A DNA stretch of 64,000 nt. Origin: Peptostreptococcaceae bacterium. GTDB taxonomy: Bacteria; Bacillota; Clostridia; Peptostreptococcales; Peptostreptococcaceae. How positions within the stretch are numbered: the stretch's first letter is position 1; the number at the start of each line of letters is the position of its first letter. Of this stretch, positions 24,441-44,951 are shown one piece after another. The position numbers were made by a program, and so were the translations under genes. The DNA is taken from assembly GCA_051654865.1 (NCBI GenBank), contig JBOFYV010000007.1, positions 32,053-96,052 of the forward strand. Reading direction: 5' to 3'. The notes beneath the pieces were generated by a model. It had not been told where the DNA came from. It ran no database searches and saw only the letters and a program-made list of their open reading frames with translations.

Positions 24441-24776
24441 TTAGCAAGTGGAACAAGGGCAATTATAGTTAGTAGAGATTTCTCTAACACAAATATTAAT
24501 TGGGTTTGTTGATACTAAACTAATTACGCCACTACAATTAACATTTACAGTTACTAAAACAACACTTGTAACAGGAGTTGATGTGACAACTGTTTTTTGT
24601 GCTATATAATAATATACAGTTTGGCAATTACATTTTTCTAGTACTAATAGAGGAACATAAGTAGTACCTAAGATATTGCCAATAGCTGTGTTGAAAATTT
24701 GTAATTGAGCAGCTGTTAATGGTGCGAAATTACCACAAGTATAAGTGTTATTTTGGTTACAATTATTTTGTACCAT
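24441..24776 (-). CDS. small cysteine-rich protein (9 Cys in 111 aa), possible spore coat/exosporium component
   Basis: RBS ggag 9 nt upstream; no signal peptide; beta-strand-rich core with terminal Cys clusters (C6, C14, C49-x-C51, C81, C96, C106-x-C108, C111); isolated monocistronic unit. Confidence 0.55.
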   Translation of the reverse strand: MVQNNCNQNNTYTCGNFAPLTAAQLQIFNTAIGNILGTTYVPLLVLEKCNCQTVYYYIAQKTVVTSTPVTSVVLVTVNVNCSGVISLVSTNPINICVREISTNYNCPCSTC

Positions 24777-24830: not shown

Positions 24831-24860
24831 TATTATATGTATTTAAAATCAAAATGTGAC
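24831..24860 (-). promoter_or_regulatory. candidate sigma-K-type (or sigma-A) promoter for the Cys-rich protein
   Basis: minus strand reads AC-16nt-CATATAATA, about 55 nt upstream of the start; AT-rich context makes a chance match possible. Confidence 0.25.
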
Positions 24861-25125
24861 AAAATAAATAAAAAAAGACTATACCTTAAATCCGATCAGG
24901 TATAGTCTAAATACAAAATATATTATAAAAAGGGGTTTATTAGGGAATATATTTTATTTGGGGAGTAAATTGGTTATTAGGGGAATAACCATGTATTAAT
25001 AATAACATTGCTTCCCAGAAAAAGCAACAAAAAACGACAAAAAAATTGAAAAAAATGAATGAGTAGCTAAAATAAACAAATAATATGTTTGAGGTCTAAT
25101 TTGTTATTGAAAGAGGTTGTGCAAA

Positions 25126-32079: not shown

Positions 32080-32982
32080 TTATTTATCTAGTATTATTAA
32101 ACCTTGTCTTGCACCAGAATGCTTATAGTTTATACCAGTATAATAAAAGTAATATATACTATTGACAATAGTTAAACTTGGTCTGTATAATCCATTCTTA
32201 TCCCAATTATTATCACTTACCTTTAGTATTGTAGAACAATTGCTCCAAAGTTTATTATCTAGGCTACAGGAATATATACATGATTGTCTATTTTTTACAT
32301 TTGCTACTAATTCATACAGTTCACCGTTTTTAATAACGTCGATATGCCAGAGTTTAATTTCGCTAAGTTGCATATCTCTTATGTGCATTAAATTTATGCC
32401 ATCCAAGCTCTCATAATATCTAAGTAGATAAGTGTTATAGTCTAAAGTTCCAACAAACCATACTTTGTATATATCATCATTATATATAACGGCAGGAGAT
32501 AATAGCCAACCATCAGTACCATTACTTTCTAATAATTTTATTCGTGTAGACCAATGTATTCCATCAGTGGAAACTTTTTTATATATAGTCTCTTTTCTTG
32601 GATTTTTAGAAAAGTGTCGATACCATACTTCCATAGTATCTCCATTCATAACTATATGTGTATCGCTATTGTATTCCAAGTTTTCTTTTTTTATATTATC
32701 AATAGGGTTTATTAATCCATTAGGCACAGTCCAATTTACACTATCATTTGAAACAACAATACAGGGATTTTCTATATTTTCATTTATTGAAGGGTAGTAT
32801 GTTAAAGGTGTAAATACCATCCAAAATTTATATCCATTCCACCCATTGTCAAAGTATAATGTTTTGCTGTGAACACATTGATTGCTACCGTCATAAGTAG
32901 GAATATTCAAATATTGAGATGCATTATCAAGATAAGTTTTATCTAATGAGAGAGTTTTTTTGTAAAACATAATATATACCAC
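32080..32982 (-). CDS. beta-propeller glycoside hydrolase-like protein (GH43/GH32/GH130-type fold, uncertain)
   Basis: 300 aa; repeated W/Y-rich blade-like segments; no signal peptide; RBS aggtgg. Confidence 0.35.
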   Translation of the reverse strand: MVYIMFYKKTLSLDKTYLDNASQYLNIPTYDGSNQCVHSKTLYFDNGWNGYKFWMVFTPLTYYPSINENIENPCIVVSNDSVNWTVPNGLINPIDNIKKENLEYNSDTHIVMNGDTMEVWYRHFSKNPRKETIYKKVSTDGIHWSTRIKLLESNGTDGWLLSPAVIYNDDIYKVWFVGTLDYNTYLLRYYESLDGINLMHIRDMQLSEIKLWHIDVIKNGELYELVANVKNRQSCIYSCSLDNKLWSNCSTILKVSDNNWDKNGLYRPSLTIVNSIYYFYYTGINYKHSGARQGLIILDK

Positions 32983-33196
32983 CTATAATTATTTTATATT
33001 TGACAAACACATACAAATATATCTATATATTAGCATATGTATTTTATAAAAAAATGTAACATTATATAATAAAATAAAATATACACATTATAATTTAAAG
33101 ATATAAAATTAAGAATAATTCAGGAACTAATGAAATTGCAATGCATATTATATTATAAATATATGAACATGGTAAATTTAAAGGAGGAGAATTAAG

Positions 33197-33937
33197 TTGA
33201 CTATTGAAGAGGGATTCTCTGTTGTTACATCAACTTATAGATACGAGTGTATAGAGAACTTGATTAATAATTTTATAGTTCAAGATTTTAAAAATAAAGA
33301 ATTAATAGTAATAATAAATAATGATAGTATAGAAATATCTGATTTTGATATTTATACACAAAAAGAGTCGAGTATAAAAGTTTACAAACTTCCACAAGCG
33401 ACAAATCTAGGAATTTGTTTGAATTTTGCAATAAGCAAAGCAAAATATAAATATGTAGCTAAATTTGATGATGATGATTTGTATGGCAAAAACTATTTAA
33501 AAGAAGCGTATAATGCTTTTATTAAAGAAGATTGTGATGTGGTTGGTAAATGGCAGTATTTAATTTATTTAGAAGGAGAAAATAAAATTCTTGCAAGGCC
33601 TAAAGATCCAAGGAGAAGTAGACAATTTGCATATGTATCGTGGCTTCCTGGGGCTACTCTTTGCTTTAAAAAAAGTATATTTGAAGACATAGAATTTTCT
33701 GATATAAATAGTCAAGTAGATGATGATATAATGAAAAAATGTGTTGAAAAAAAATTAAAGATATTTTCAACATCAAGAAATAATTTTATAGCAATGAGAC
33801 ATATAGATACAAATAAGCACACATGGAAGATAACTCATGAGAAACTTATAGAAACTTGTACTTTGATTAAAGAGGATATATCATTTGAAAAAGCGTATGA
33901 AGCTATAAATAATGATGATGATTTATATACAAATTAA
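33197..33937 (+). CDS. GT-A fold (GT2-like) glycosyltransferase, paralog B
   Basis: 246 aa; TTG start with RBS aaggaggag; FSVVTSTYRYECIENL..NKELIVIINND and KFDDDDLYG; about 40-45% identical by eye to paralog A. Confidence 0.6.
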   Translation: MTIEEGFSVVTSTYRYECIENLINNFIVQDFKNKELIVIINNDSIEISDFDIYTQKESSIKVYKLPQATNLGICLNFAISKAKYKYVAKFDDDDLYGKNYLKEAYNAFIKEDCDVVGKWQYLIYLEGENKILARPKDPRRSRQFAYVSWLPGATLCFKKSIFEDIEFSDINSQVDDDIMKKCVEKKLKIFSTSRNNFIAMRHIDTNKHTWKITHEKLIETCTLIKEDISFEKAYEAINNDDDLYTN

Positions 33938-33999
33938 AATTTATACTATACAAACATATAATAAGCAATAAATTATATCATAATAGAAAGGAGCCAAAT

Positions 34000-35292
34000 A
34001 TGTTATATAGTAAATCAGAATATAATAAAATCGCAGTAATTGGACTAGGATATGTAGGATTACCGCTAGCTATAGAATTTGATAAACATTTTAGCGTAAT
34101 TGGATTTGATATAGATAAAAACAAGATAAAATCATATATTGAAGGAATAGATGCGACAAATGAAGTTGGAGATGATAATTTAAAAAACAGTACTATTGAG
34201 TTTACATCAGATGAAACAAAACTAAAGGAAGCGAACTTTTATATAATAGCAGTTCCAACTCCAATAAATATAGATAAAACACCTGATTTAAATCCTATAA
34301 TATCAGCAAGTGAAATTGTAGGTAGAAATTTAGAATCAGGAGCTGTAATCGTATATGAATCAACTGTTTATCCAGGACTTACAGAAGAAGTATGTATTCC
34401 TATACTTGAGAAAAGTTCAAGTCTTAAATGCAAAGATGATTTTAAGGTGGGGTATTCTCCTGAAAGGATAAACCCTGGAGATAAAGTAAATAAACTTCCA
34501 AGTATAGTTAAGATAGTTTCTGGATGTGATGAAGAAGCATTAGAAATTATATCTAATATATATGGTGTAATAATTAAAGCAGGATTATGTAAAGTGAAGA
34601 ATATAAAAGTTGCAGAAGCCGCAAAAATACTAGAAAATTCACAAAGAGATATAAATATAGCATTTGTAAATGAAGTTGCAATGATTTTTCATAAAATGGA
34701 TATAGATATAAATGAAGTATTAAATGCTTGTAAGACTAAGTGGAATTTTTTAGACTTTACACCGGGCTTAGTAGGTGGAAATTGTATAGGTGTAGATCCA
34801 TATTACTTAATATATAAAGCAAATACTCTAAGCTGCTCATCTCAAATAATATCTTCAGCTAGAAATATAAATGATAATATGGGAAATTATATAGGTGAAA
34901 ATATAATAAAAAAACTTATTCTTTGCAACAAAAAGGTAAAAAACGCTAATGTAGGCATATTTGGAATAACATTTAAGGAAGATTGTCCAGATTGTAGCAA
35001 TAGTAAAGTAGTAGATATAATTAATTATTTAAAGGAATATGATGTAAATATAAAGGTTTTTGATCCAGTAGCTAGTTTTGATGAAATTAAGAAGAAATTT
35101 AATGTAGAGCTATGCAAAATAGAAGAAATGAAAGACTTTGATGTTATAGTATTTGCAGTAAATCATCAGTTCTTCAAAGACACATTTAATATAGAAAATA
35201 TAAGTATACTCTATCAATCTGATACTAAAATTTTGATAGACATAAAAGGTATCTTTGATGATACAGATAAGTATGTATATTGGAGATTATGA
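34000..35292 (+). CDS. nucleotide-sugar dehydrogenase (UDP-GlcNAc/UDP-ManNAc 6-dehydrogenase family, TviB/WbpA/Cap5O-like)
   Basis: 430 aa; N-terminal Rossmann KIAVIGLGYVGLPLA; central catalytic Cys region GGNCIGVDPYY. Confidence 0.75.
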   Translation: MLYSKSEYNKIAVIGLGYVGLPLAIEFDKHFSVIGFDIDKNKIKSYIEGIDATNEVGDDNLKNSTIEFTSDETKLKEANFYIIAVPTPINIDKTPDLNPIISASEIVGRNLESGAVIVYESTVYPGLTEEVCIPILEKSSSLKCKDDFKVGYSPERINPGDKVNKLPSIVKIVSGCDEEALEIISNIYGVIIKAGLCKVKNIKVAEAAKILENSQRDINIAFVNEVAMIFHKMDIDINEVLNACKTKWNFLDFTPGLVGGNCIGVDPYYLIYKANTLSCSSQIISSARNINDNMGNYIGENIIKKLILCNKKVKNANVGIFGITFKEDCPDCSNSKVVDIINYLKEYDVNIKVFDPVASFDEIKKKFNVELCKIEEMKDFDVIVFAVNHQFFKDTFNIENISILYQSDTKILIDIKGIFDDTDKYVYWRL

Positions 35293-35324
35293 TTTTAGTT
35301 ATAAAAAATTAAAAGGTGATAGAT

Positions 35325-36887
35325 ATGAACTTGGATTTAAATCAAAGTAAATGGTTAAGCAAAAGTAAAGTGAAAATATATAATGATAATAATTTTTTAG
35401 TAATAGAATATGATGAATCAAGCAGTGAACATGGGTATGAATATATACAATATGAACATTTTACTACATTCACTAAATATAGTGAAAAAGATAGAACTGA
35501 TATGAGCCCAAATAATGTCTATAGGGTAGATTTTGATGGCAAAATTGAAGGTAATATAAATGTACTATTGACAATAAAAACTTATTCAAAAGCAGGACAA
35601 CTGTCCTCTAATAATATAACTACAGGTAGTAGTATTATTATGAAAGCAGATGAAAATATAATATCCTATAAAGTTGCAATAAGAGTAAGTGGAAAAGGTA
35701 GAATAGTAATCAATAATATAAGTATAAATGATTTTAATGAAAATTATTTAGCAAATAAAGACAAAAGTGAAAAATATCTTATATTAACCAATGGGTACCC
35801 TAGTGATAATGATTTATATAGAAATGCATTTATTCATAGAAGAGCAAAACTGTATAAATCTAGTAACTTAAATCTTGATATATATTATTTATGCAAAGAC
35901 AGATATTTGATTAGCTATAAATTTGATGGAGTTGATATATACAAAGGTAATAGTAAAATGTTAGAAGATGTTATTAAATATGGAAATTATAAAAAAATAT
36001 TAATACATTTTGTAGACTCAACTATGATTGATACAATAAATAAAAATATACCTAATATAGAAAAAGTTGTGTGGATTCATGGTTATGAAGCTGAACGATG
36101 GGATAGAAGACTATTTAATTATACAGGCGATGAAATAGATAGAAATAAGTTTATATTTGATAAAAATGATGAAAATAAGTTTATATTTCTAAGAAAAATA
36201 TATAAAAGTCCTGAATATACATTTGTGTTTGTATCTAATTATCATAAAGAAGCTTGTGAGAGTGATGCTAATACAAAAACAAAACACTCATATGTAATTC
36301 CAAATGTAGTAGATGAAAAGCTTTTTAATTTTACACCAAAAGATATAGAACAAAGAAAAAAGATACTTTTAATAAGACCGTTTAAATACAAACATTGTGC
36401 TAATGACTTAGCAGTAAAAGCAATAATAGAATTAGCTAAAAGAGAAATTTTTAAAGAATTAGAGTTTAATATATACGGAGAAGGTAGTTTATTCTATGAG
36501 ACTTTAAGTCCTATAAAGGATTTAAAAAATGTTAACATACACAATACCTTTTTAACTCAAGATGAAATTTCACAAATGCACAAAAAACATGGAGTGTTAT
36601 TGTGTCCAACAAGAAAAGATAGTCAGGGTGTATCAATATGTGAGGCAATGAGTAGTGGACTAGTACCTGTTTCCACAAATATAGATGCTATACCAGAATT
36701 TGTTCCTTTCAATTGTGGTATGCTATCAAATCCAGAAGATTATATAGGGCTTGCCAATTCAATAGAATATATTTATAACCATCCTGATATATTTTTAGAA
36801 ATGTCCCAAAATGCATCTTCTTTTATTAAGAATAAGTGTGGAATAGATAAGACAATATCAAAAGAATTAGAAATAATAAGACGCTAA
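35325..36887 (+). CDS. GT4-family (GT-B, Glycos_transf_1) glycosyltransferase with an N-terminal extension of about 140 aa
   Basis: C-terminal ...HGVLLCPTRKDSQGVSICEAMSSGLVPVSTNIDAIPEFV typical GT4 E-x7-E region; ATG 35325 preferred over GTG 35316 on RBS spacing. Confidence 0.65.
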   Translation: MNLDLNQSKWLSKSKVKIYNDNNFLVIEYDESSSEHGYEYIQYEHFTTFTKYSEKDRTDMSPNNVYRVDFDGKIEGNINVLLTIKTYSKAGQLSSNNITTGSSIIMKADENIISYKVAIRVSGKGRIVINNISINDFNENYLANKDKSEKYLILTNGYPSDNDLYRNAFIHRRAKLYKSSNLNLDIYYLCKDRYLISYKFDGVDIYKGNSKMLEDVIKYGNYKKILIHFVDSTMIDTINKNIPNIEKVVWIHGYEAERWDRRLFNYTGDEIDRNKFIFDKNDENKFIFLRKIYKSPEYTFVFVSNYHKEACESDANTKTKHSYVIPNVVDEKLFNFTPKDIEQRKKILLIRPFKYKHCANDLAVKAIIELAKREIFKELEFNIYGEGSLFYETLSPIKDLKNVNIHNTFLTQDEISQMHKKHGVLLCPTRKDSQGVSICEAMSSGLVPVSTNIDAIPEFVPFNCGMLSNPEDYIGLANSIEYIYNHPDIFLEMSQNASSFIKNKCGIDKTISKELEIIRR

Positions 36888-36893
36888 AACTTT

Positions 36894-36942
36894 AGCCAAT
36901 AGTACCTAGAAATTAATATGGAAGCTATTGGCTTTATTATGT
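36894..36942 (+). terminator. candidate terminator
   Basis: agccaatag ...23 nt... ctattggct followed by ttattatg; weak U-tract. Confidence 0.35.
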
Positions 36943-36996
36943 CTATTCAAAACATTTCATTATTAGTTAAATGCTTGTTAGTATGATGAAGTTGTA

Positions 36997-37686
36997 TTAA
37001 TCCTTAGACAAGTTAAAATTATTTAAAATTATTTTCTTTTGAATAGAATTATCTATAATATTCCTTACAAATGGATGATTAAACTTAGTGCTAGTATTTT
37101 GACCATGTAGTATTACCATAAAATTTCCACTATTAAATACATAATGATTAAGTTTTATTGCATTAGTATGGCTATTTAGTATATATCTGAATCCACTTAA
37201 ATAGTCTTGAACTTTGTAAATAAGAGTAAAAAAAGGAGGGGATTGAGCATACCAAATTCCCAAATTATCACCAACTATATCATAGACATAACCTTCTTTA
37301 TTTACTATACACTCTAAGTTGGAGGTATGCTCAAAATCTATTAATTGTTGAATGAAATTAGGATGATACATATCATCACTGTCTAGTCTTACAATATAAA
37401 GATAATCATAACCATGTATAATTTTTTTTATAAGAGCGTTTCCACTAGATGTAAAGATTATATTAGAAGGCATTAAATCATATTGAGAAAGAGCGCTTTG
37501 AATTAATACCTCGCTAAGTTCATCATAGTGAATTATAGCAGTAAAAGATTGGTTAGTTTGATTTATCAAACTTTTAAATGTATAATTCATAAAAATGCTC
37601 ATTCTATAGTCAATCCATTCTTTATTTAGTCGAAATTGGTTTAGTTTATTCTTATTGAAACTAATATCAATAATTATTTTTTTCAT
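36997..37686 (-). CDS. GT-A fold glycosyltransferase (DSDD motif; putative rhamnosyltransferase-like family)
   Basis: 229 aa; LYIVRLDSDDMYHPNF DxD-type motif; RBS gaggtga; no TM. Confidence 0.5.
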   Translation of the reverse strand: MKKIIIDISFNKNKLNQFRLNKEWIDYRMSIFMNYTFKSLINQTNQSFTAIIHYDELSEVLIQSALSQYDLMPSNIIFTSSGNALIKKIIHGYDYLYIVRLDSDDMYHPNFIQQLIDFEHTSNLECIVNKEGYVYDIVGDNLGIWYAQSPPFFTLIYKVQDYLSGFRYILNSHTNAIKLNHYVFNSGNFMVILHGQNTSTKFNHPFVRNIIDNSIQKKIILNNFNLSKD

Positions 37687-39853: not shown

Positions 39854-40486
39854 ATGGATTTAATTAGTAAAATAAGAAAAAATACAGGGGCTTTACATAG
39901 TGCGACTGAAAATAGTGGTATTATAAAAAGAATATTAGATGTAAATTCTAATAAAGATGATTATGCAGAGTATTTATTTAATCTATATCCAATGTACAAA
40001 GCAATAGAAGATACTATTGAAAATAATAAATCTAATGAAACTGTAAAAAACTTTGCAACAAAAGAATTATATAAGTCTGAATTAATAAAAGAGGACTTAG
40101 AGTATTTACTAGGTGACAAAATAGACACACTAAAGTTACTACCGTCAACAATAGCTTCAGTAGAAAGAATTCGACAAATAAATGAAAATGAGCCGGAGCT
40201 TATAGTTGCATATGCATACACAAGATTTATAGCAGACTTATTTGGAGGACGTACTTTTGCTACATTATTAAGTGAGAAATACGAACTACCAACAGAAGCT
40301 CTAAATTATTATAATTGTGAAGGTATAAAAGATATTAGAGGCTATGTAATGAACTATGCTTCTAAAATAAATAATATAGAATTAACAAAAGAGAAGGAAG
40401 ATAAAATTTTAAATGAAGTAAGTAATGCATATATATATAACTTAGGAATATCATGTGAATTAGAGGCTAAATTGAATAAAAAGTAA
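39854..40486 (+). CDS. heme oxygenase (HO-1/HemO-like, biliverdin-producing) family protein
   Basis: 210 aa; N-terminal LHSATENSGIIKRIL...YAEYLFNLYPMYKAIE matches the heme oxygenase proximal helix pattern. Confidence 0.5.
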   Translation: MDLISKIRKNTGALHSATENSGIIKRILDVNSNKDDYAEYLFNLYPMYKAIEDTIENNKSNETVKNFATKELYKSELIKEDLEYLLGDKIDTLKLLPSTIASVERIRQINENEPELIVAYAYTRFIADLFGGRTFATLLSEKYELPTEALNYYNCEGIKDIRGYVMNYASKINNIELTKEKEDKILNEVSNAYIYNLGISCELEAKLNKK

Positions 40487-40694
40487 CTATAATGAAAACG
40501 TATAAACAAATTAATCACCCCCATATGAGTTAAAATAAACTTATATGGGGGTATTTCTTATATATAATACCGCGAAATAATACAATGAATTAATAATATT
40601 TTATAAATAATACTTTAAACATCAAATAAAAATAGCACAATAAAATAGTTGCTGTCATATTATAAAGAAAATATATAAATAGGGGGCAATTATT

Positions 40695-41201
40695 ATGAAA
40701 AAGTATATTGATAATAAAAATAGACCTGGTGGAATTGTAATATTCCCACCGGGAGGAGGACCAGGACCGGTTATATATCCACCAAATACATTTCCACCTA
40801 TACCGCCATTACCACAACCAGAAAATGATAAGTTTAAGGTGAAAATAAAATCAGTATTTGAAAATGGATTTGTAGTAGTTGGGGAAAATGGATATTTATA
40901 CGTAGCTGAAGATAAGTATACTAAAAATGCAGTATTTAAATTGATATTTGATAAAAATCAAGTAAAAATCAAGTATATAAATGATAACTTTATAAGAGTT
41001 GATCAAAGGGGATTCTTGATAGCTGATACCAATAAAAAAGGTGCTACAGTATTTAATTTATATAAAGTGGACAAGGAACAATATGTATTACAAGCTCCAA
41101 ATGGATATTATGTAAGAGTAAGGGATAAAGATAATTTACTAGTAGCAAAAGCTGAAAAAGCAGGGCCAAGAACTATATTTAAATTTAAAATGGTAGATTA
41201 A
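40695..41201 (+). CDS. beta-trefoil (fascin-like) domain protein with Pro/Gly-rich N-terminal linker
   Basis: 168 aa; three pseudo-repeats of about 40 aa; PPGGGPGPVIYPPNTFPPIPPLPQP segment; no signal peptide. Confidence 0.4.
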   Translation: MKKYIDNKNRPGGIVIFPPGGGPGPVIYPPNTFPPIPPLPQPENDKFKVKIKSVFENGFVVVGENGYLYVAEDKYTKNAVFKLIFDKNQVKIKYINDNFIRVDQRGFLIADTNKKGATVFNLYKVDKEQYVLQAPNGYYVRVRDKDNLLVAKAEKAGPRTIFKFKMVD

Positions 41202-41220
41202 ATGAAGCTGTATAATAATA

Positions 41221-41275
41221 AAGCTGTATCCTAGAAATTATATGATATAATCCTAAGGTGTAGCTTTATTGTTAT
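41221..41275 (+). terminator. candidate terminator
   Basis: aagctgtatcctag ... ctaaggtgtagctt imperfect hairpin followed by tattgttat. Confidence 0.4.
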
Positions 41276-41448
41276 ATGAATAATATTCGTGATTATATGA
41301 GTATAACCTAGGATTGATTTGTTTAATTTATTATAAACGAGATAAAATACGAACTAAATTTTAAAAAAAATAAAAAATATATGGAAAAAATAAACGCGTT
41401 GTGCTAATATTATAAATGTAAAACACAGGAAACTAGGGGGACTAATAA

Positions 41449-42777
41449 ATGAAGAATGGATCAATTTATGAATTAGAAGGGAAAGTTGCTTTAAACAAAG
41501 CTATACCTTTAGGAATACAACATGTATTAGCTATGTTTTTAGGAAATATATCACCACTTATAATTATTAGTGGAATGTTAAATATGCCAATAGAAATGAA
41601 AACTATGTTAATTCAAAATGCAATGTTTGTAGCAGGAATAGCAACATTAATTCAGTTATACCCAGTATTTAAAGTAGGAGCGGGACTACCAATTGTAATG
41701 GGAACTAGTTCTGGATTTATAGGAACAGCAAAAGCAATAGGAGCAACTTATGGATATGGAGCAATACTAGGAGCATCACTTGTAGGTGCTATTATAGAAA
41801 TGTTCTTAGGATTTTTTATAAAACCACTTAAAAAGTTATTTCCACCTATAGTAACAAGTCTAGTAGTTATAGCTATAGGGTTATCTCTTTTACCAGTTGG
41901 GATTAAATACTTTGGTGGAGGAGTAGGAGCAAGTGATTTTGGTAGTACTAATCATTTATTAGTAGGAACAACAGTTATCATAACAATATTAATACTAAAG
42001 CAATTTAAAGGATTTATAGGAGAATCATCAATTTTATTAGGAATTGTAGTAGGATACATATTAGCAATAGTACTTGGAATGGTAGATTTTACTCAAGTAA
42101 AAGAGGCTGAATGGTTAAGTTTACCTAGACCATTTGTAACAGGAATAGAGTTTAATATACAAGCAATAATAGCAATGACAATAATGTTTATAGCAACAAC
42201 AGTAGAAACAATAGGAGATATATCTGGAATTACAAATGGTGGACTAGATAGAGAGCCAACTGACAAAGAATTAGCAGGTGGAGTAATGGCAGATGGGGTC
42301 GCAAGTTTTATAGGAGCTTTATTTGGGGTATTACCAAATACATCATTTAGTCAAAATGTTGGATTAGTAGCAGTTACTAAAGTTGTAAATAAGTTTGTAA
42401 TAATGACAGGGGCAGTATTTTTAATAATATGTGGATTTGTACCAAAGCTAAGTGCAATATTTTCTGTAATGCCTCAATCTGTACTTGGTGGAGCAGCAGT
42501 TATAATGTTTGCAATGATTTTAGTAAGTGGGCTTCAATCATTAACAAGAGAAAAAATAGATGGAAGAAATGGACTTATAATAGCAGTATCAATAGGAATT
42601 GGTGTGGGAATAGGAAATGTACCTGAAGTACTTTCACAGCTACCAGAGTGGGTATCTAATATATTTGCTCAAAATGGAATAATTATGACATTTGTAATAG
42701 CTACTGTACTTAATTTAGTTTTACCTAAAGATAAAGAAGAAGGTATAAAAGTAGAAAATAAGCTTATAATTGAATAG
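41449..42777 (+). CDS. NCS2-family nucleobase:cation symporter (xanthine/uracil permease)
   Basis: 442 aa; IPLGIQHVLAMFLGNISP NCS2 signature; 12-14 TM; RBS agggggac. Confidence 0.8.
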   Translation: MKNGSIYELEGKVALNKAIPLGIQHVLAMFLGNISPLIIISGMLNMPIEMKTMLIQNAMFVAGIATLIQLYPVFKVGAGLPIVMGTSSGFIGTAKAIGATYGYGAILGASLVGAIIEMFLGFFIKPLKKLFPPIVTSLVVIAIGLSLLPVGIKYFGGGVGASDFGSTNHLLVGTTVIITILILKQFKGFIGESSILLGIVVGYILAIVLGMVDFTQVKEAEWLSLPRPFVTGIEFNIQAIIAMTIMFIATTVETIGDISGITNGGLDREPTDKELAGGVMADGVASFIGALFGVLPNTSFSQNVGLVAVTKVVNKFVIMTGAVFLIICGFVPKLSAIFSVMPQSVLGGAAVIMFAMILVSGLQSLTREKIDGRNGLIIAVSIGIGVGIGNVPEVLSQLPEWVSNIFAQNGIIMTFVIATVLNLVLPKDKEEGIKVENKLIIE

Positions 42778-42780
42778 CCT

Positions 42781-42845
42781 AAAATCAAAAGTGTATCAAT
42801 ATAAATATTATTATATTGATACACTTTTGATTTATTATTTTTTAA
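42781..42845. terminator. bidirectional terminator with a 21-bp perfect stem
   Basis: aaatcaaaagtgtatcaatat aaatattatt atattgatacacttttgattt followed by attatttttt. Confidence 0.75.
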
Positions 42846-43290
42846 TAATAAAATCCTTTATATATCCGTAAGACTCATAATTATCAAACATAGGTATAGA
42901 TGAATCAAATTTAACATAAATAGGTGTATTAATAAGCTCTGGGTATTTTATGAATAAATCCTTATCACCATAAAATATAGCTTCTAGGGCTAATCTCATA
43001 TGGTATTTAAAAGCGGCATATTTCATAGATGCACTAAAAAAATCTGACTCGTTAACATAAGCATAAAAATATAATTTATAAGAAACATCCTCAGACATTT
43101 TCCAAGAACCTAAAAGTTCATCTCTTAAATCTTTGTTTATAGCTTCATAATTAAAAAAATCAGCTATATTCAAAAACATCATACCAGTATCATCAGAATG
43201 GGTAAGGGTGTACTTTCTATTTTCAATAGGTCCAAAAGGAGTCATAGGTTCAATAAACGTAGTTTCTAATTTATTAGGGTTAAATTTCAT
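42835..43290 (-). CDS. STAY-GREEN (SGR) family protein homolog (Mg-dechelatase-like)
   Basis: 151 aa; YTLTHSD block and C-terminal GDKDLFIKYPEL...VKFDSSIPMFDNYES match, as I recall them, the plant SGR/NYE1 blocks (YTLTHSD; GDGNLLNNYPEL..VYFHSN.PEFNKVE). Confidence 0.6.
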   Translation of the reverse strand: MKFNPNKLETTFIEPMTPFGPIENRKYTLTHSDDTGMMFLNIADFFNYEAINKDLRDELLGSWKMSEDVSYKLYFYAYVNESDFFSASMKYAAFKYHMRLALEAIFYGDKDLFIKYPELINTPIYVKFDSSIPMFDNYESYGYIKDFIIKK

Positions 43291-43513
43291 ATAATCACCA
43301 CCATATAGTTTTCATAGTAATATAATATAGAAACTATATAGTATAAGTTACTAATTAAGGCCATACTGTTAAAATAAGAGTGATATAATAATATTACTCT
43401 AAATGGTGCCGCAGCTATGAGGTGTGTAAGATTTCTATGAAGAAGGATTAATATTAGAAAAATTAGGATTTGGAGGACTGAATAAAAAGGAATTAATAGA
43501 TAATGTATAAAAT

Positions 43514-43578
43514 ATAAGAACAAAACAATAGCACTTATATCTAGCTAATATAAGTGCTGTTGTTTTGTTCTTATAAGA
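43514..43578. repeat. 27-bp near-perfect inverted repeat (hairpin) in the intergenic region
   Basis: ataagaacaaaacaatagcacttatat ctagctaat atataagtgctgttgttttgttcttat (one A/G wobble). Confidence 0.7.
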
Positions 43579-43643
43579 CTATTGTTATATTATACTACCT
43601 ATGATATACTTCAAAAGAATATGTAATAAAAGTGAGGTTTAAA

Positions 43644-44951
43644 ATGAAAAAAACGAATTCTTTTAAGGTGATAATCCTTACAATCTTAATGTTGACAATG
43701 AATAGCATTACAAGTATTGTAAATGCTCAGAATAATCTAGGGAAGATTGAGGGAATAATTGCCGAATCAGCGATAGTTATGGATATGGATACAGGGGAAG
43801 TTATAGCTTCAAAAAATGCGGATAAAGAAATGCCTGTAGCAAGTACAATTAAGCTATTAACATCTTTAATATTTGCGGAAAATAAGTCTAAAAATGATAC
43901 TATATCATTTACTGAAGATTCATTAAAAACAACTATAACAGCATTAAATAACTTTAAGAAATTAAATGTTGGAGATACAATCTCAGCTAATGATTTAATG
44001 AAAGCAGTAATGATTTTCTCGGCTAATGATGCTGCATACTTAATGGCAGATTCAGTGGCTGGAAACTCAAAAGATTTTGTAAAAATGATGAATGAGAAAG
44101 TTAAGTCATTCGGGCTTAAAGATACTCACATTGTAAATCCATGTGGATTAGAGTCAGATGCAATAAATCCAGAAAATAAAGAAATAAATACATCAACGGC
44201 TTATGATATGGCAATAATTGCAAGTCAAGCTTATAAAAATGAATGGATTAGAGATATAGTATCAGATAAATACAAAAAGACATCAATAGATTTATCAGGA
44301 TCACCATTATACATTGATTCAAGAAACAAAATATTAGGTGAAGTTGGCAATATTGGAGGTAAAACAGGGAATGAGACTAAAGCAGGTCATTGTTTTGTGG
44401 GTTACTTTGAAAGAGATGGAAGAAAGTTAGTTACTGTTGCTCTTAAATCGCAATATGGAGCAGATGGGATGAATGTATTTAACGATACTAAAAAGATAGC
44501 AGACACAGGATATGAAACAAAAAAGCAAGTATATAAAAAAGCTAATGAAGAAATAGGAAGTATAGATTTAGAATTCAAAGCATTTAGATTCTTTGGGCCA
44601 ACAAAGAGTATAAATGCTCCAGTAATAGCTACAGAAGATATAATGTACTACAAAAACGATATAAACGATAAAAATGCAAAGTTAGATATAGATGATAAAA
44701 ATAACAATGCATGGAAATTAGCAAACAAAGAAGTAGAAATGAAACTTTCATTACCAAATAATAACTCAAAGATATCAGGAAAGATAGATATATCAACATT
44801 TGATTTATTAAAAATGAATGCAGGATTATACGTAGGTACTATGTTAGGTATAGTTATACTAGGGTTAATAATAATATTTATAGTTAAATTAATAAATGAT
44901 AGAAATAGAAGTAGTAGAAGAAGATATAAAAATAGATATAGAAGAAGATAG
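43644..44951 (+). CDS. D-alanyl-D-alanine carboxypeptidase (low-MW PBP, peptidase S11) with C-terminal membrane anchor and Arg-rich tail
   Basis: SxxK (ASTIKLL), SxN (FSANDAA) and KTG (GGKTGNE) motifs; signal peptide; ATG 43644 preceded by gtgagg. Confidence 0.75.
   Translation: MKKTNSFKVIILTILMLTMNSITSIVNAQNNLGKIEGIIAESAIVMDMDTGEVIASKNADKEMPVASTIKLLTSLIFAENKSKNDTISFTEDSLKTTITALNNFKKLNVGDTISANDLMKAVMIFSANDAAYLMADSVAGNSKDFVKMMNEKVKSFGLKDTHIVNPCGLESDAINPENKEINTSTAYDMAIIASQAYKNEWIRDIVSDKYKKTSIDLSGSPLYIDSRNKILGEVGNIGGKTGNETKAGHCFVGYFERDGRKLVTVALKSQYGADGMNVFNDTKKIADTGYETKKQVYKKANEEIGSIDLEFKAFRFFGPTKSINAPVIATEDIMYYKNDINDKNAKLDIDDKNNNAWKLANKEVEMKLSLPNNNSKISGKIDISTFDLLKMNAGLYVGTMLGIVILGLIIIFIVKLINDRNRSSRRRYKNRYRRR

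What the first reader, a model, noticed from the sequence alone, without database searches (positions are those of the whole stretch)
42835..43290. STAY-GREEN (Mg-dechelatase) homolog in a presumed non-phototroph
The 151-aa protein contains YTLTHSD and a C-terminal GD..L...YPEL....V.F.S.IP.F block that I recognise as the conserved core of plant SGR/NYE1 Mg-dechelatases. There is no chloroplast-type Cys-rich tail. Bacterial SGR homologs with promiscuous dechelatase activity have been reported, but their physiological substrate in anaerobes is unknown. It could act on dietary chlorophyllides or another metallotetrapyrrole. The gene is isolated between a bidirectional terminator and a 27-bp hairpin.
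Basis: partly seen in the sequence, partly recalled or inferred. Interest (0 to 1): 0.55.

Follow-up and report, generated by a model that had tools for sequence, protein, structure and literature searches.

The report
Staygreen Mg-dechelatase homolog in a Peptostreptococcaceae genome
The gene is a real, intact bacterial relative of the plant STAY-GREEN enzyme that removes magnesium from chlorophyll; it is already labelled as such in GenBank, but comparison with relatives suggests that in spore-forming bacteria it is a sporulation (spore-coat) gene rather than part of chlorophyll or heme breakdown.

Summary
The 151-aa ORF at 42835-43290 (-) matches Pfam Staygreen PF12638 over its full length (149 bits, cutoff 27). 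Its AlphaFold model superposes on the only solved family member, 7Y5Y (TM 0.90). Every residue shown by mutagenesis to matter in that enzyme is conserved, including the catalytic His31/Asp33/Asp57. The gene is under purifying selection (dN/dS 0.10-0.20).

The exact protein is already in GenBank as "staygreen family protein [Peptostreptococcaceae bacterium]". Bacterial SGR homologs in non-phototrophs have been published since 2019. As stated, the finding is therefore correct but known.

- **Heme oxygenase link:** none of 87 other SGR loci has a heme oxygenase nearby, and the closest syntenic relative lacks it.
- **Upstream hairpin:** it sits in a ~230-nt insertion specific to this lineage.

One new lead emerged. 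Firmicute SGR genes travel with their own promoter, which resembles the late mother-cell sigma-K class. The match is strict in Bacillaceae-type lineages and C. botulinum, and is a T/A-for-C variant in this window. SGR is also repeatedly fused or adjacent to the YybI_C inner-spore-coat domain, DUF3888 and collagen-like repeats. A spore-associated role is plausible but unproven.

The parts
42835..43290 (-). Staygreen-family gene. It encodes a 151-aa single-domain protein with no signal peptide and no cysteine.
   Evidence: ORF. PF12638 E=1e-43, 149 bits, profile 1-147/147. 7y5y_A E=1.7e-27. AF2 pLDDT 93 and TM 0.90 to 7Y5Y. dN/dS 0.10-0.20. Identical to GenBank MGL5345871.1.
43192..43200 (-). 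Codons for His31-Ser32-Asp33, the catalytic core of the YTLTHSD motif. Asp57 is encoded at 43120-43122.
   Evidence: These residues map onto AbSGR-h H32/S33/D34 and D62. D34N and D62N are inactive but soluble, and H32A is weakly active (PMC8531759). H31, D33 and D57 are invariant in 53 homologs.
43295..43302 (-). Shine-Dalgarno sequence GGTGGTGA.
   Evidence: Read from the sequence. The equivalent G(T/G)TGGTGAT is conserved upstream of 20 related lineages.
43321..43352 (-). Conserved promoter block AGTAACT-N16-TATATTATA (AC-N17-TATATTATA). The -10 element ends 30 nt before the ATG.
   Evidence: Conserved at a fixed position in 17 of 20 Peptostreptococcaceae-type lineages although the neighbouring genes differ. 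It is the only strict match in the window, against 0.22 expected. It resembles the mapped C. difficile sigma-K promoters, with -35 GTAACA. The matrix score is 9.5 bits, which 16% of controls reach.
42784..42831 (.). Bidirectional terminator-like hairpin shared by the SGR gene and the convergent pbuX gene.
   Evidence: Terminator scan. RNA folds of -28.0 and -27.6 kcal/mol on the two strands, z about -10.6. The T-tract is good on the + strand (pbuX) and weak (UUU) on the - strand.
43352..43583 (.). Lineage-specific ~230-nt insertion carrying the 28-bp hairpin (43513-43575). It lies between the divergent SGR and S11-peptidase promoters and is not a conserved part of the SGR unit.
   Evidence: Absent from the same intergenic region in L091 and L093, with only a 34-nt piece in L092. 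Unique in the window. The hairpin is perfectly paired on the + strand through a G-U pair.

Best explanation
The gene encodes a genuine, functional, stand-alone member of the Staygreen (SGR) family. It is the same fold and active site as the Anaerolineae enzyme AbSGR-h and the plant SGR/NYE1 Mg-dechelatases.

**Shown here:**
- Family membership, fold and conservation of the catalytic residues.
- Purifying selection on the gene.
- Monocistronic organisation with its own conserved promoter.
- Absence of a signal peptide, transit peptide and Cys-rich tail.

**Inferred from the characterised homolog.** Asp33 would coordinate and destabilise the central Mg2+ of a chlorophyll-type tetrapyrrole. His31 and Asp57 would assist deprotonation, so that Mg2+ is replaced by two protons. 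With chlorophyll a or chlorophyllide a the products would be pheophytin or pheophorbide.

**Inferred from comparative genomics.** In endospore-forming Firmicutes, including this Peptostreptococcaceae bacterium, the gene is most likely transcribed late in sporulation in the mother cell from a sigma-K-type promoter. It would then act in or on the spore coat rather than in a chlorophyll or heme catabolic pathway.

The natural substrate remains unknown.
For: **Family membership**
- PF12638 hit of 149 bits against a cutoff of 27, full length.
- 7y5y_A E=1.7e-27 and 41% identity.
- AF2 pLDDT 93. Foldseek finds only 7Y5Y at E<=0.001, with TM 0.90 and rmsd 1.9 A.

**Active site**
- R25/Y27/T28/T30/H31/D33/D57/D109 map to AbSGR-h R26/Y28/T29/T31/H32/D34/D62/D114.
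- The roles of these residues come from mutagenesis (PMC8531759; PMC11006732).
- H31, D33 and D57 are invariant in 53 homologs down to 35% identity. They are present in 88-93% of 134 family representatives.

**Selection and annotation**
- dN/dS is 0.10-0.20.
- GenBank already names this protein a staygreen family protein.

**Sporulation link**
- A strict AC-N16-17-CATAnnnTA motif lies upstream of SGR in 9 of 23 Bacillaceae-type lineages, against about 0.14 expected.
- The same motif is present in C. botulinum, and CATATAAT boxes occur in two fusion clades.
- SGR upstream regions score higher than control genes on a matrix built from 25 mapped C. difficile sigma-K promoters (p=4.5e-4 and 6.6e-6).
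- SGR is fused to the YybI_C domain in at least 8 clusters, and a YybI_C protein sits directly upstream in 7 lineages.
- YybI is an inner spore-coat protein (PMC7725329; PMC4433262).
- SGR+DUF3888 fusions are common, and one carries collagen-like repeats.
Against: **Activity**
- No activity has been measured for this clade.
- The literature says activity and substrate range vary widely among bacterial homologs. The highly active ones are those closest to eukaryotic SGRs (PMC8531759).
- This protein is further from the eukaryote-type sequences than AbSGR-h is (distance 0.68-0.73 against 0.53-0.56).

**Sigma-K reading for this window**
- The -10 element starts with T (TATATTATA). None of the 25 mapped C. 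difficile sigma-K promoters has T at that position; 13 have C and 12 have A.
- 16% of control upstream regions score as high as the window's, and the gene ranks only 9th of 58 in the window.
- The TAnnnT variation pattern also fits a sigma-A -10 element.

**Spore association more generally**
- The YybI_C partner genes themselves show no strict sigma-K motif.
- No sporulation marker gene lies in the window.
- SGR homologs also occur in non-sporulating Chloroflexi and in Archaea (PMC8531759), so a spore role cannot be the family's general function.
Confidence: 0.72

Rival explanations
1. The protein would be a vegetative, cytoplasmic enzyme that strips the metal from exogenous (dietary or plant-litter) chlorophyllides or another metallotetrapyrrole. 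It would possibly work with the nearby heme oxygenase as a small tetrapyrrole-salvage or detoxification module.
For: - The catalytic triad is intact and the characterised homolog has a broad substrate range: chlorophylls a, b and c, chlorophyllide and protochlorophyllide.
- A heme oxygenase (PF01126, E=2e-42) lies 2.3 kb away.
- Relatives occur in gut and fermentation metagenomes where chlorophyll derivatives are present.
- The promoter's -10 element also fits sigma-A.
Against: - The heme oxygenase is on the opposite strand and separated from SGR by two unrelated genes.
- It has no homolog near any of 87 other SGR loci covering 627 kb.
- It is absent from the syntenic site in L093/L094.
- No esterase, oxygenase or transporter partner is conserved next to SGR in 43 lineages.
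- The conserved -35 element (GTAACA, never TTG...) is a poor sigma-A -35 element.
- There is no obvious uptake route for chlorophyll derivatives.
Confidence: 0.15
2. In Firmicutes the SGR fold would serve mainly as a structural or assembly component of the spore coat or exosporium, for example as an oligomerising N-terminal module. Mg-dechelation of chlorophyll would then be only a promiscuous in-vitro side activity with no physiological role.
For: - AbSGR-h forms a homo-hexamer (PMC8531759).
- SGR occupies the N-terminal position in SGR / collagen-like / DUF3888 and SGR / YybI_C architectures. This resembles the N-terminal-domain / collagen-like-region / C-terminal-domain layout of spore-surface proteins.
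- Sporulation-type promoters lie upstream.
- The published view is that the bacterial activity is promiscuous and its physiological relevance unknown.
Against: A purely structural role would not need the His/Asp/Asp triad. Yet these residues are invariant across 53 homologs and strongly conserved family-wide, under dN/dS of 0.1-0.2. That argues for a conserved catalytic or metal or ligand-binding function.
Confidence: 0.1
3. The gene would be a decaying or non-functional remnant of a horizontally acquired SGR gene, or the ORF would be an annotation artefact.
For: - It is an isolated single gene flanked by opposite-strand genes, with variable neighbourhoods among relatives.
- No NCBIfam model matches it.
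Against: - The domain is full length and the Shine-Dalgarno sequence is good.
- dN/dS is 0.10-0.20 against four relatives.
- Functional residues are invariant.
- A conserved promoter travels with the gene.
- The structural model is high-confidence.
Confidence: 0.02

Closest known systems
AbSGR-h, the Staygreen homolog of an Anaerolineae bacterium (PDB 7Y5Y; Obata et al. 2019; Dey et al. 2021, 2022)
   Same: - Single-domain protein of about 150-160 aa, without transit peptide or Cys-rich tail.
- 41% identity, and the same fold (TM 0.90).
- Identical catalytic residues His/Asp/Asp and identical structural residues Arg/Tyr/Thr/Asp.
- Comes from a non-phototroph, and its physiological role is unknown.
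   Different: - Different phylum: Bacillota rather than Chloroflexota.
- Further from the eukaryotic SGRs than AbSGR-h is, so high activity cannot be assumed.
- R95 is replaced by K90 and R115 by K110.
- The Firmicute clade carries sporulation-type promoters and spore-coat-domain fusions. I found no such report for AbSGR-h.
Plant SGR1/NYE1, SGR2 and SGRL Mg-dechelatases
   Same: Same Pfam domain. It shares the YTLTHSD-type catalytic motif, the RDE motif and the C-terminal GD..L....P.L...V.F.S block.
   Different: - No N-terminal chloroplast transit peptide and no C-terminal extension with the CxxxCxCC motif. The window protein has no cysteine at all.
- Not embedded in a chlorophyll catabolic pathway (PPH, PAO, RCCR).
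- The host makes no chlorophyll.
Staygreen family proteins of other endospore-forming Firmicutes, as named by NCBI (Romboutsia, Terrisporobacter, Clostridium botulinum, C. felsineum, Gottschalkia, Acetohalobium, Orenia, Neobacillus, Ureibacillus)
   Same: - 35-86% identity, the same length and the same invariant residues.
- Usually monocistronic, with a promoter that travels with the gene.
- The window protein itself is GenBank MGL5345871.1.
   Different: - Some relatives are fused to DUF3888, the YybI_C domain or collagen-like repeats. The window protein is the plain single-domain form, as are 114 of 159 representatives.
- Its -10 box begins with T, where Clostridium and Bacillaceae relatives have CATA.
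Sigma-K-dependent spore-coat genes of Clostridioides difficile (cotA, cotE, cotJB2-cotD, cotF-cotCB; Saujet et al. 2013)
   Same: The promoter architecture matches: -35 (T/A)GTAAC(A), about 17 nt after AC, then an ATAnnnTA-type -10 element, followed by a short 5' UTR. Compare cotA TGTAACAT-N-AATATAAAT with the window's AGTAACT-N-TATATTATA.
   Different: - There is no expression or localisation data for any SGR homolog.
- The first -10 base is T, which was not seen among the 25 mapped sigma-K promoters.
- No named homolog from C. difficile appeared in the searches.

Membership tests
Staygreen family (Pfam PF12638) | Match to the family profile above the curated gathering score, covering the whole domain | tested here: met
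   149.1 bits against a cutoff of 27, E=1e-43, residues 2-147 on profile positions 1-147 of 147.
Staygreen family (Pfam PF12638) | SGR fold as in the crystal structure 7Y5Y | tested here: met
   AF2 model with pLDDT 93 and pTM 0.89. Foldseek against the PDB gives 7y5y_A at E=1.3e-17, TM 0.90 and rmsd 1.9 A, and this is the only hit with E<=0.001.
Staygreen family (Pfam PF12638) | Catalytic residues equivalent to AbSGR-h H32, D34 and D62 | tested here: met
   H31, D33 and D57 align to them. They are invariant in 53 homologs. Their roles come from mutagenesis (PMC8531759; PMC11006732).
Staygreen family (Pfam PF12638) | Structure-maintaining residues equivalent to R26, Y28, T29 and D114 | tested here: met
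   R25, Y27, T28 and D109 are present. R25, Y27 and T28 are invariant, and D109 is conserved in at least 90% of sequences.
Staygreen family (Pfam PF12638) | Mg-dechelatase activity on chlorophyll a or chlorophyllide a | not testable with these tools
   This needs a recombinant enzyme assay. The literature reports variable activity among bacterial homologs.
Staygreen family (Pfam PF12638) | Homo-oligomer (hexamer), as reported for AbSGR-h | not tested
   Only a monomer was modelled. Equivalents of the residues whose mutation broke the hexamer (T31, R61, E63, R95) are T30, R56, E58 and K90.
Plant-type SGR/NYE1 subfamily | N-terminal chloroplast transit peptide | tested here: not met
   The domain starts at residue 2. 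Eukaryote-type representatives carry 40-100 extra N-terminal residues.
Plant-type SGR/NYE1 subfamily | C-terminal extension with the cysteine-rich motif (CxxxCxCC) | tested here: not met
   The protein ends 4 residues after the domain and has no cysteine. The motif is visible in the eukaryote-type P0236 and P0218.
Sigma-K (late mother-cell) regulon | Promoter with a -35 AC element and a -10 CATAnnnTA element 16-17 nt apart, at a suitable distance from the start codon | tested here: inconclusive
   - The window has AC-N17-TATATTATA ending 30 nt from the ATG. The -35 element AGTAAC fits mapped C. difficile sigma-K promoters, but the first -10 base is T instead of C or A.
- The score is 9.5 bits, which 16% of controls reach.
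- The strict motif is present in 9 of 23 Bacillaceae-type lineages and in C. botulinum.
Sigma-K (late mother-cell) regulon | Loss of expression in a sigK mutant, or induction late in sporulation | not testable with these tools
   No transcriptome data for an SGR-bearing species was found in the library.
Spore-coat proteins | Physical presence in the coat or exosporium of purified spores | not testable with these tools
   The evidence is only indirect. It consists of fusion and adjacency to the YybI_C inner-coat domain and fusions with collagen-like repeats.

The most novel reading that the evidence does not exclude
In endospore-forming Firmicutes the Staygreen homologs would be late mother-cell (sigma-K/sigma-E-dependent) sporulation genes. 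Their products would be spore-coat-associated enzymes that work with YybI-type inner-coat proteins and DUF3888. This would give the first physiological context for bacterial SGR homologs. It would also imply that the plant chlorophyll-degrading enzyme descends from a family which, in one major bacterial lineage, acts on the spore surface. There it might remove or exchange a metal in a coat-bound tetrapyrrole or another chelate.
Probability: 0.35. Interest if true: 0.7.

Novelty: already known. Interest (0 to 1): 0.4.

Why it matters
As stated, the finding is already known. Bacterial SGR homologs in non-phototrophs were described in 2019, one has been crystallised, and this exact protein is auto-annotated in GenBank.

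The open question is what these proteins do in organisms that never make chlorophyll. The literature calls their physiological relevance unknown (PMC8531759; PMC9306834).

The comparative pattern found here makes that question testable in tractable spore-formers such as C. botulinum/sporogenes-group strains, Romboutsia lituseburensis and Neobacillus. The pattern has three parts:
- A promoter that travels with the gene and belongs to the mother-cell sporulation class.
- Repeated fusion or adjacency to the YybI_C inner-spore-coat domain.
- Fusions with DUF3888 and collagen-like repeats.

If the pattern holds, it would change the account of where the rate-limiting enzyme of plant chlorophyll breakdown came from.

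Tried and rejected
- **RNA families:** Rfam found nothing at gathering thresholds in the whole window. A permissive scan of 41150-43700 gave only sub-threshold miRNA-like matches to the two hairpins, and no riboswitch.
- **NCBIfam:** no model matches the SGR protein, the DUF3888 fusion or the YybI_C partner.
- **Heme oxygenase linkage:** rejected.
- **Metal-transporter neighbours:** an HMA P-type ATPase lies next to SGR in R. lituseburensis and Ureibacillus, with a ZIP transporter and a CNNM protein also nearby. This occurs in only 2 of 43 lineages, so I treated it as chance.
- **Thermonuclease neighbour:** an SNase gene lies upstream on the same strand in 3 lineages. I judged this to be lineage synteny.
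- **LexA box:** I considered a LexA (Cheo) box reading of GAACAT and rejected it by eye, because the right half-site is missing.
- **Same promoter elsewhere in the window:** only the SGR gene's own copy was found.
- **Partner-gene promoters:** the YybI_C partner genes show no strict sigma-K motif.
- **DUF3888 structure:** a PDB sequence search with the DUF3888 part found nothing.
- **The inserted hairpin segment:** it has no other copy in the window and no convincing copy in the fetched loci.
- **Literature:** searches for DUF3888, "staygreen family protein", PF12638 and staygreen plus sporulation gave nothing relevant to bacteria. The 2026 preprint on prokaryotic chlorophyll degradation does not mention spores.
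- **Papers not available:** Obata et al. 2019 and Dey et al. 2022 are not held in the library, so I could not check which Firmicute homologs, if any, were assayed.
Full report
**1. Observation.** The ORF is at the stated coordinates: 42835-43290, minus strand, ATG start, 151 aa. A Shine-Dalgarno sequence GGTGGTGA ends 4 nt before the ATG. It has no cysteine and no hydrophobic segment; the maximum 19-residue hydropathy is 0.38. The window has 27.6% G+C, so a 151-codon open frame is itself unlikely by chance. The profile match below removes any doubt.

**2. Family membership.**
- hmmscan against Pfam-A gives a single hit, Staygreen PF12638. E is 1e-43 and the score 149.1 bits against a gathering score of 27. 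Residues 2-147 align to profile positions 1-147 of 147.
- A search of all PDB sequences finds one relative, 7y5y_A, "Staygreen domain-containing protein" from an Anaerolineae bacterium (E=1.7e-27).
- A ColabFold model built on 53 homologs has mean pLDDT 93 and pTM 0.89.
- Foldseek against the PDB returns 7y5y_A at E=1.3e-17, TM 0.90 and rmsd 1.9 A. This is the only hit with E<=0.001. The next hits are weak cofilin-like matches with TM below 0.4.

**3. Active site.** For the Anaerolineae enzyme (AbSGR-h), D34N and D62N abolish activity without loss of solubility, and H32A weakens it. R26, Y28, T29 and D114 are needed for folding (PMC8531759).

The crystal-structure paper's mechanism, as summarised in PMC11006732, is as follows. 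D34 coordinates and destabilises the central Mg. H32 interacts with D62 so that D34 is readily deprotonated.

A global alignment maps these residues to window residues R25, Y27, T28, T30, H31, D33, D57 and D109, all identical. R95 becomes K90 and R115 becomes K110. Overall identity is 41%.

In an alignment of 53 homologs down to 35% identity, R25, K26, Y27, T28, T30, H31, D33, R56, D57 and E58 are invariant. Among 134 near-full-length family representatives, the triad positions are H in 119, D in 118 and D in 124.

Nei-Gojobori dN/dS against four relatives is 0.10, 0.14, 0.20 and 0.18. The gene is therefore intact, constrained and presumably catalytic. That it removes Mg2+ from chlorophyll-type substrates is an inference from the homolog and is not shown here.

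**4. Organism and existing annotation.** The exact sequence is GenBank MGL5345871.1, [quoted passage not shown], on a 96-kb contig. The neighbouring heme oxygenase, permease, beta-propeller and prohibitin proteins are on the same record.

The closest named homologs are from Romboutsia (72-73%) and Terrisporobacter (66%). Window genes are typical of an anaerobic Firmicute, and none relates to phototrophy.

[quoted passage not shown] It also says that some have high, broad Mg-dechelatase activity and that their physiological relevance is unknown (PMC8531759; PMC9306834).

The family is small. It has 373 representatives at 50% identity with E<=1e-3 among 1.84 billion.

**5. Local anatomy.**
- The gene is monocistronic.
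- Downstream it converges on a xanthine/uracil permease gene (pbuX, TIGR03173). The two genes share a hairpin at 42784-42831 (dG about -28 kcal/mol, z -10.6).
- Upstream it diverges from an S11 D-Ala-D-Ala carboxypeptidase gene.
- The same intergenic region in the closest relatives is only about 122 nt long, against 341 nt here. The hairpin lies within a ~230-nt segment (about 43352-43583) that is absent from L091 and L093, with only a 34-nt remnant in L092.
- That segment is unique in the window. It is a lineage-specific insertion immediately upstream of the SGR promoter, not a conserved boundary of the gene.

**6. Heme oxygenase.** The gene at 39854-40486 is a bona fide PF01126 heme oxygenase. 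However:
- It is on the other strand, with two unrelated genes in between.
- No homolog occurs in the 627 kb flanking 87 other SGR genes.
- In L093/L094 the order S11 peptidase / SGR / pbuX / fascin-like / beta-propeller is retained. There the fascin-like and beta-propeller genes are 90 nt apart with no heme oxygenase between them.

The proposed functional link is not supported.

**7. Comparative context.** I collected 88 SGR loci in 43 lineages, defined by at least 90% SGR identity.

In the low-GC, Peptostreptococcaceae-type lineages the gene is nearly always flanked by opposite-strand genes that differ from lineage to lineage. No catabolic partner is conserved.

In 7 higher-GC, Bacillaceae-type lineages a ~255-aa protein with an N-terminal signal or anchor sequence lies directly upstream on the same strand, with gaps of 9-87 nt. 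Its family is PF27120, labelled YybI_C in the precomputed annotation. Some source records call it "spore coat protein" or "inner spore coat protein". B. subtilis YybI is an inner-layer coat protein (PMC7725329), and its C. perfringens homolog is induced in sporulation (PMC4433262).

The same domain is fused to the C-terminus of SGR in P0141 and P0232. BLASTP of P0141 against the free-standing partner gives E=9e-19. It is also fused in at least 8 clusters found with a second query and in locus L097.

A second recurrent fusion is SGR+DUF3888 (PF13027). It accounts for 14 of 159 representatives and for dozens of clusters. One of these has collagen-like repeats between the two domains.

The window protein is the plain single-domain form, as are 114 of 159 representatives.

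**8. Promoter.** Upstream regions of the 20 Peptostreptococcaceae-type lineages align over about 60 nt despite unrelated flanking genes. The consensus is tGTAACAt-N-ttATATtATA-N-aGTTGGTGAT-ATG. In the window this block is 43321-43352. It is the only strict match in 64 kb, against 0.22 expected.

In the Bacillaceae-type group, 9 of 23 lineages have the textbook sigma-K pattern AC-N16-17-CATAnnnTA between -120 and -35. About 0.14 would be expected by chance. Three further clades fetched afterwards behave the same way:
- C. botulinum has ACAACTTCCTTAACCTAATCATATAATA.
- The SGR+YybI_C fusion has AC-N17-CATATAAT.
- The SGR+DUF3888 fusion has a sigma-E-type ATA...CATATAAT.

C. difficile belongs to the same family as the window organism. 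Its experimentally mapped sigma-K promoters have a -35 element of GTAACA, GAACA or TCACA. About half have a -10 box beginning with A instead of C (cotA, cotE, CD1891, CD3613, and CD2399 with AATATTAT). One candidate promoter has TATAATAT (PMC3789822 Table S7).

I built a two-block weight matrix from the 25 mapped promoters. It scores SGR upstream regions above the upstream regions of other genes in the same loci:

| Group | SGR median (bits) | Control median (bits) | Mann-Whitney p |
|---|---|---|---|
| Peptostreptococcaceae type | 8.9 | 6.5 | 4.5e-4 |
| Bacillaceae type | 9.3 | 4.9 | 6.6e-6 |

**Caveats for the window itself.**
- Its -10 box starts with T, which is not seen in the 25 mapped promoters.
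- Its score of 9.5 bits is reached by 16% of controls.
- It ranks 9th of 58 genes in the window.
- The invariant TAnnnT pattern would also suit sigma-A.

I therefore regard sporulation-specific transcription as well supported for the Clostridium and Bacillaceae relatives. For this gene it is the more likely, but unproven, reading.

**9. Mechanism, with status.**
- Shown: family, fold, active-site residues, selective constraint, monocistronic unit with its own conserved promoter, and cytoplasmic synthesis (no signal peptide).
- Inferred from the homolog: Mg2+ removal from chlorophyll-type macrocycles through Asp33, assisted by His31 and Asp57.
- Inferred from comparative genomics: mother-cell expression and a spore-coat association, possibly together with YybI-type proteins.
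- Unknown: the natural substrate.

A chlorophyll or heme catabolic role receives no support from gene context.

**10. Comparison and novelty.** The closest characterised relative is AbSGR-h (7Y5Y). The window protein is further from the eukaryote-type SGRs than AbSGR-h is (distances 0.68-0.73 against 0.53-0.56). The published observation that the most active bacterial homologs are those nearest the eukaryotic clade therefore argues for caution about its activity level.

It is not a plant-type SGR, because it lacks both the transit peptide and the Cys-rich tail.

The finding as written is already known. It is annotated in GenBank and the family is published. I found no paper in the searchable library linking Staygreen proteins to sporulation. 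The sporulation/spore-coat lead appears to be new, and it makes the open question of the bacterial function testable.

**11. Scores.**
- Interest: 0.40.
- Novelty class: already known.
- Most novel reading not excluded: Firmicute SGR homologs are sigma-K/sigma-E-dependent spore-coat enzymes (probability about 0.35, interest if true 0.7).

Noticed in passing
window 43352-43583 (hairpin 43513-43575): A ~230-nt segment carrying a perfect 28-bp hairpin is inserted between the divergent SGR and S11-peptidase promoters. The stem includes one G-U pair on the + strand, which is an A.C mismatch on the - strand. The segment is absent from the same site in the closest relatives and has no other copy in the window. 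It could be a small mobile element, an sRNA gene or a transcriptional insulator.
   Followed up: partly
window 39854-40486 (+): This is a canonical, O2-dependent heme oxygenase (PF01126, E=2e-42) in a presumed obligate anaerobe. It sits between the beta-propeller and fascin-like genes, which are directly adjacent in relatives L093/L094. It is therefore a lineage-specific gain or loss.
   Followed up: partly
window 40695-41201 (+); promoter-like site 40633-40664: This 168-aa protein has a Pro/Gly-rich N-terminus and a fascin-type beta-trefoil domain (PF06268, E=7e-10). It is conserved next to pbuX in L093. A strict sigma-K-type motif (GCACA-N-CATATTATA) ends 30 nt before its start codon, so it is a candidate spore-surface protein.
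   Followed up: partly
window 33122-33152 and 33197-37686; also 33031-33061 upstream of 32080-32982 (-): This glycosyltransferase cluster comprises a GT2, a UDP-glucose/GDP-mannose dehydrogenase, a GT1 and a weak rhamnosyl-transferase-like gene. It is preceded by the second-best sigma-K-matrix match in the window (AGGAAC-N-CATATTATA, 15.2 bits). The divergent 300-aa gene with no Pfam hit also has a match. This resembles sigma-K-dependent spore-polysaccharide (sps-like) loci.
   Followed up: no
window 24441-24776 (-); promoter-like site 24831-24861: This 111-aa ORF has no Pfam match, yet it has the best sigma-K-matrix score in the window (TGTCACAT-N-CATATAATA, 15.6 bits). It may encode a small spore protein.
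   Followed up: no
window 41202-41448: The 247-nt region upstream of the xanthine permease gene (pbuX, TIGR03173) has no purine riboswitch or any other Rfam match, even at E<=1. pbuX genes in Firmicutes are often riboswitch-controlled.
   Followed up: partly
L097 4001-5209; L095 4001-4798; proteins P0141, P0145, P0135: Multi-domain SGR proteins occur in other Firmicutes: SGR+YybI_C (~400 aa), SGR+DUF3888 (~260 aa) and SGR+collagen-like repeats+DUF3888 (325 aa). DUF3888 has no solved structure, no NCBIfam model and no mention in the searchable literature.
   Followed up: partly
L084, L062, L078, L060 (positions -3 to -1 relative to SGR): In Bacillaceae-type genomes the order parC-like topoisomerase subunit / alanine:sodium symporter / YybI_C protein / SGR is conserved across several lineages. 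A sigma-K-type promoter sits in the short gap before SGR.
   Followed up: partly
L003 14021-14935; L096 6453-6881; L097 5353-5997; L081 38-442: DUF2935 proteins lie near SGR in R. lituseburensis and C. botulinum. DUF4397 proteins lie next to SGR in three other lineages. These cases are too few to judge.
   Followed up: no
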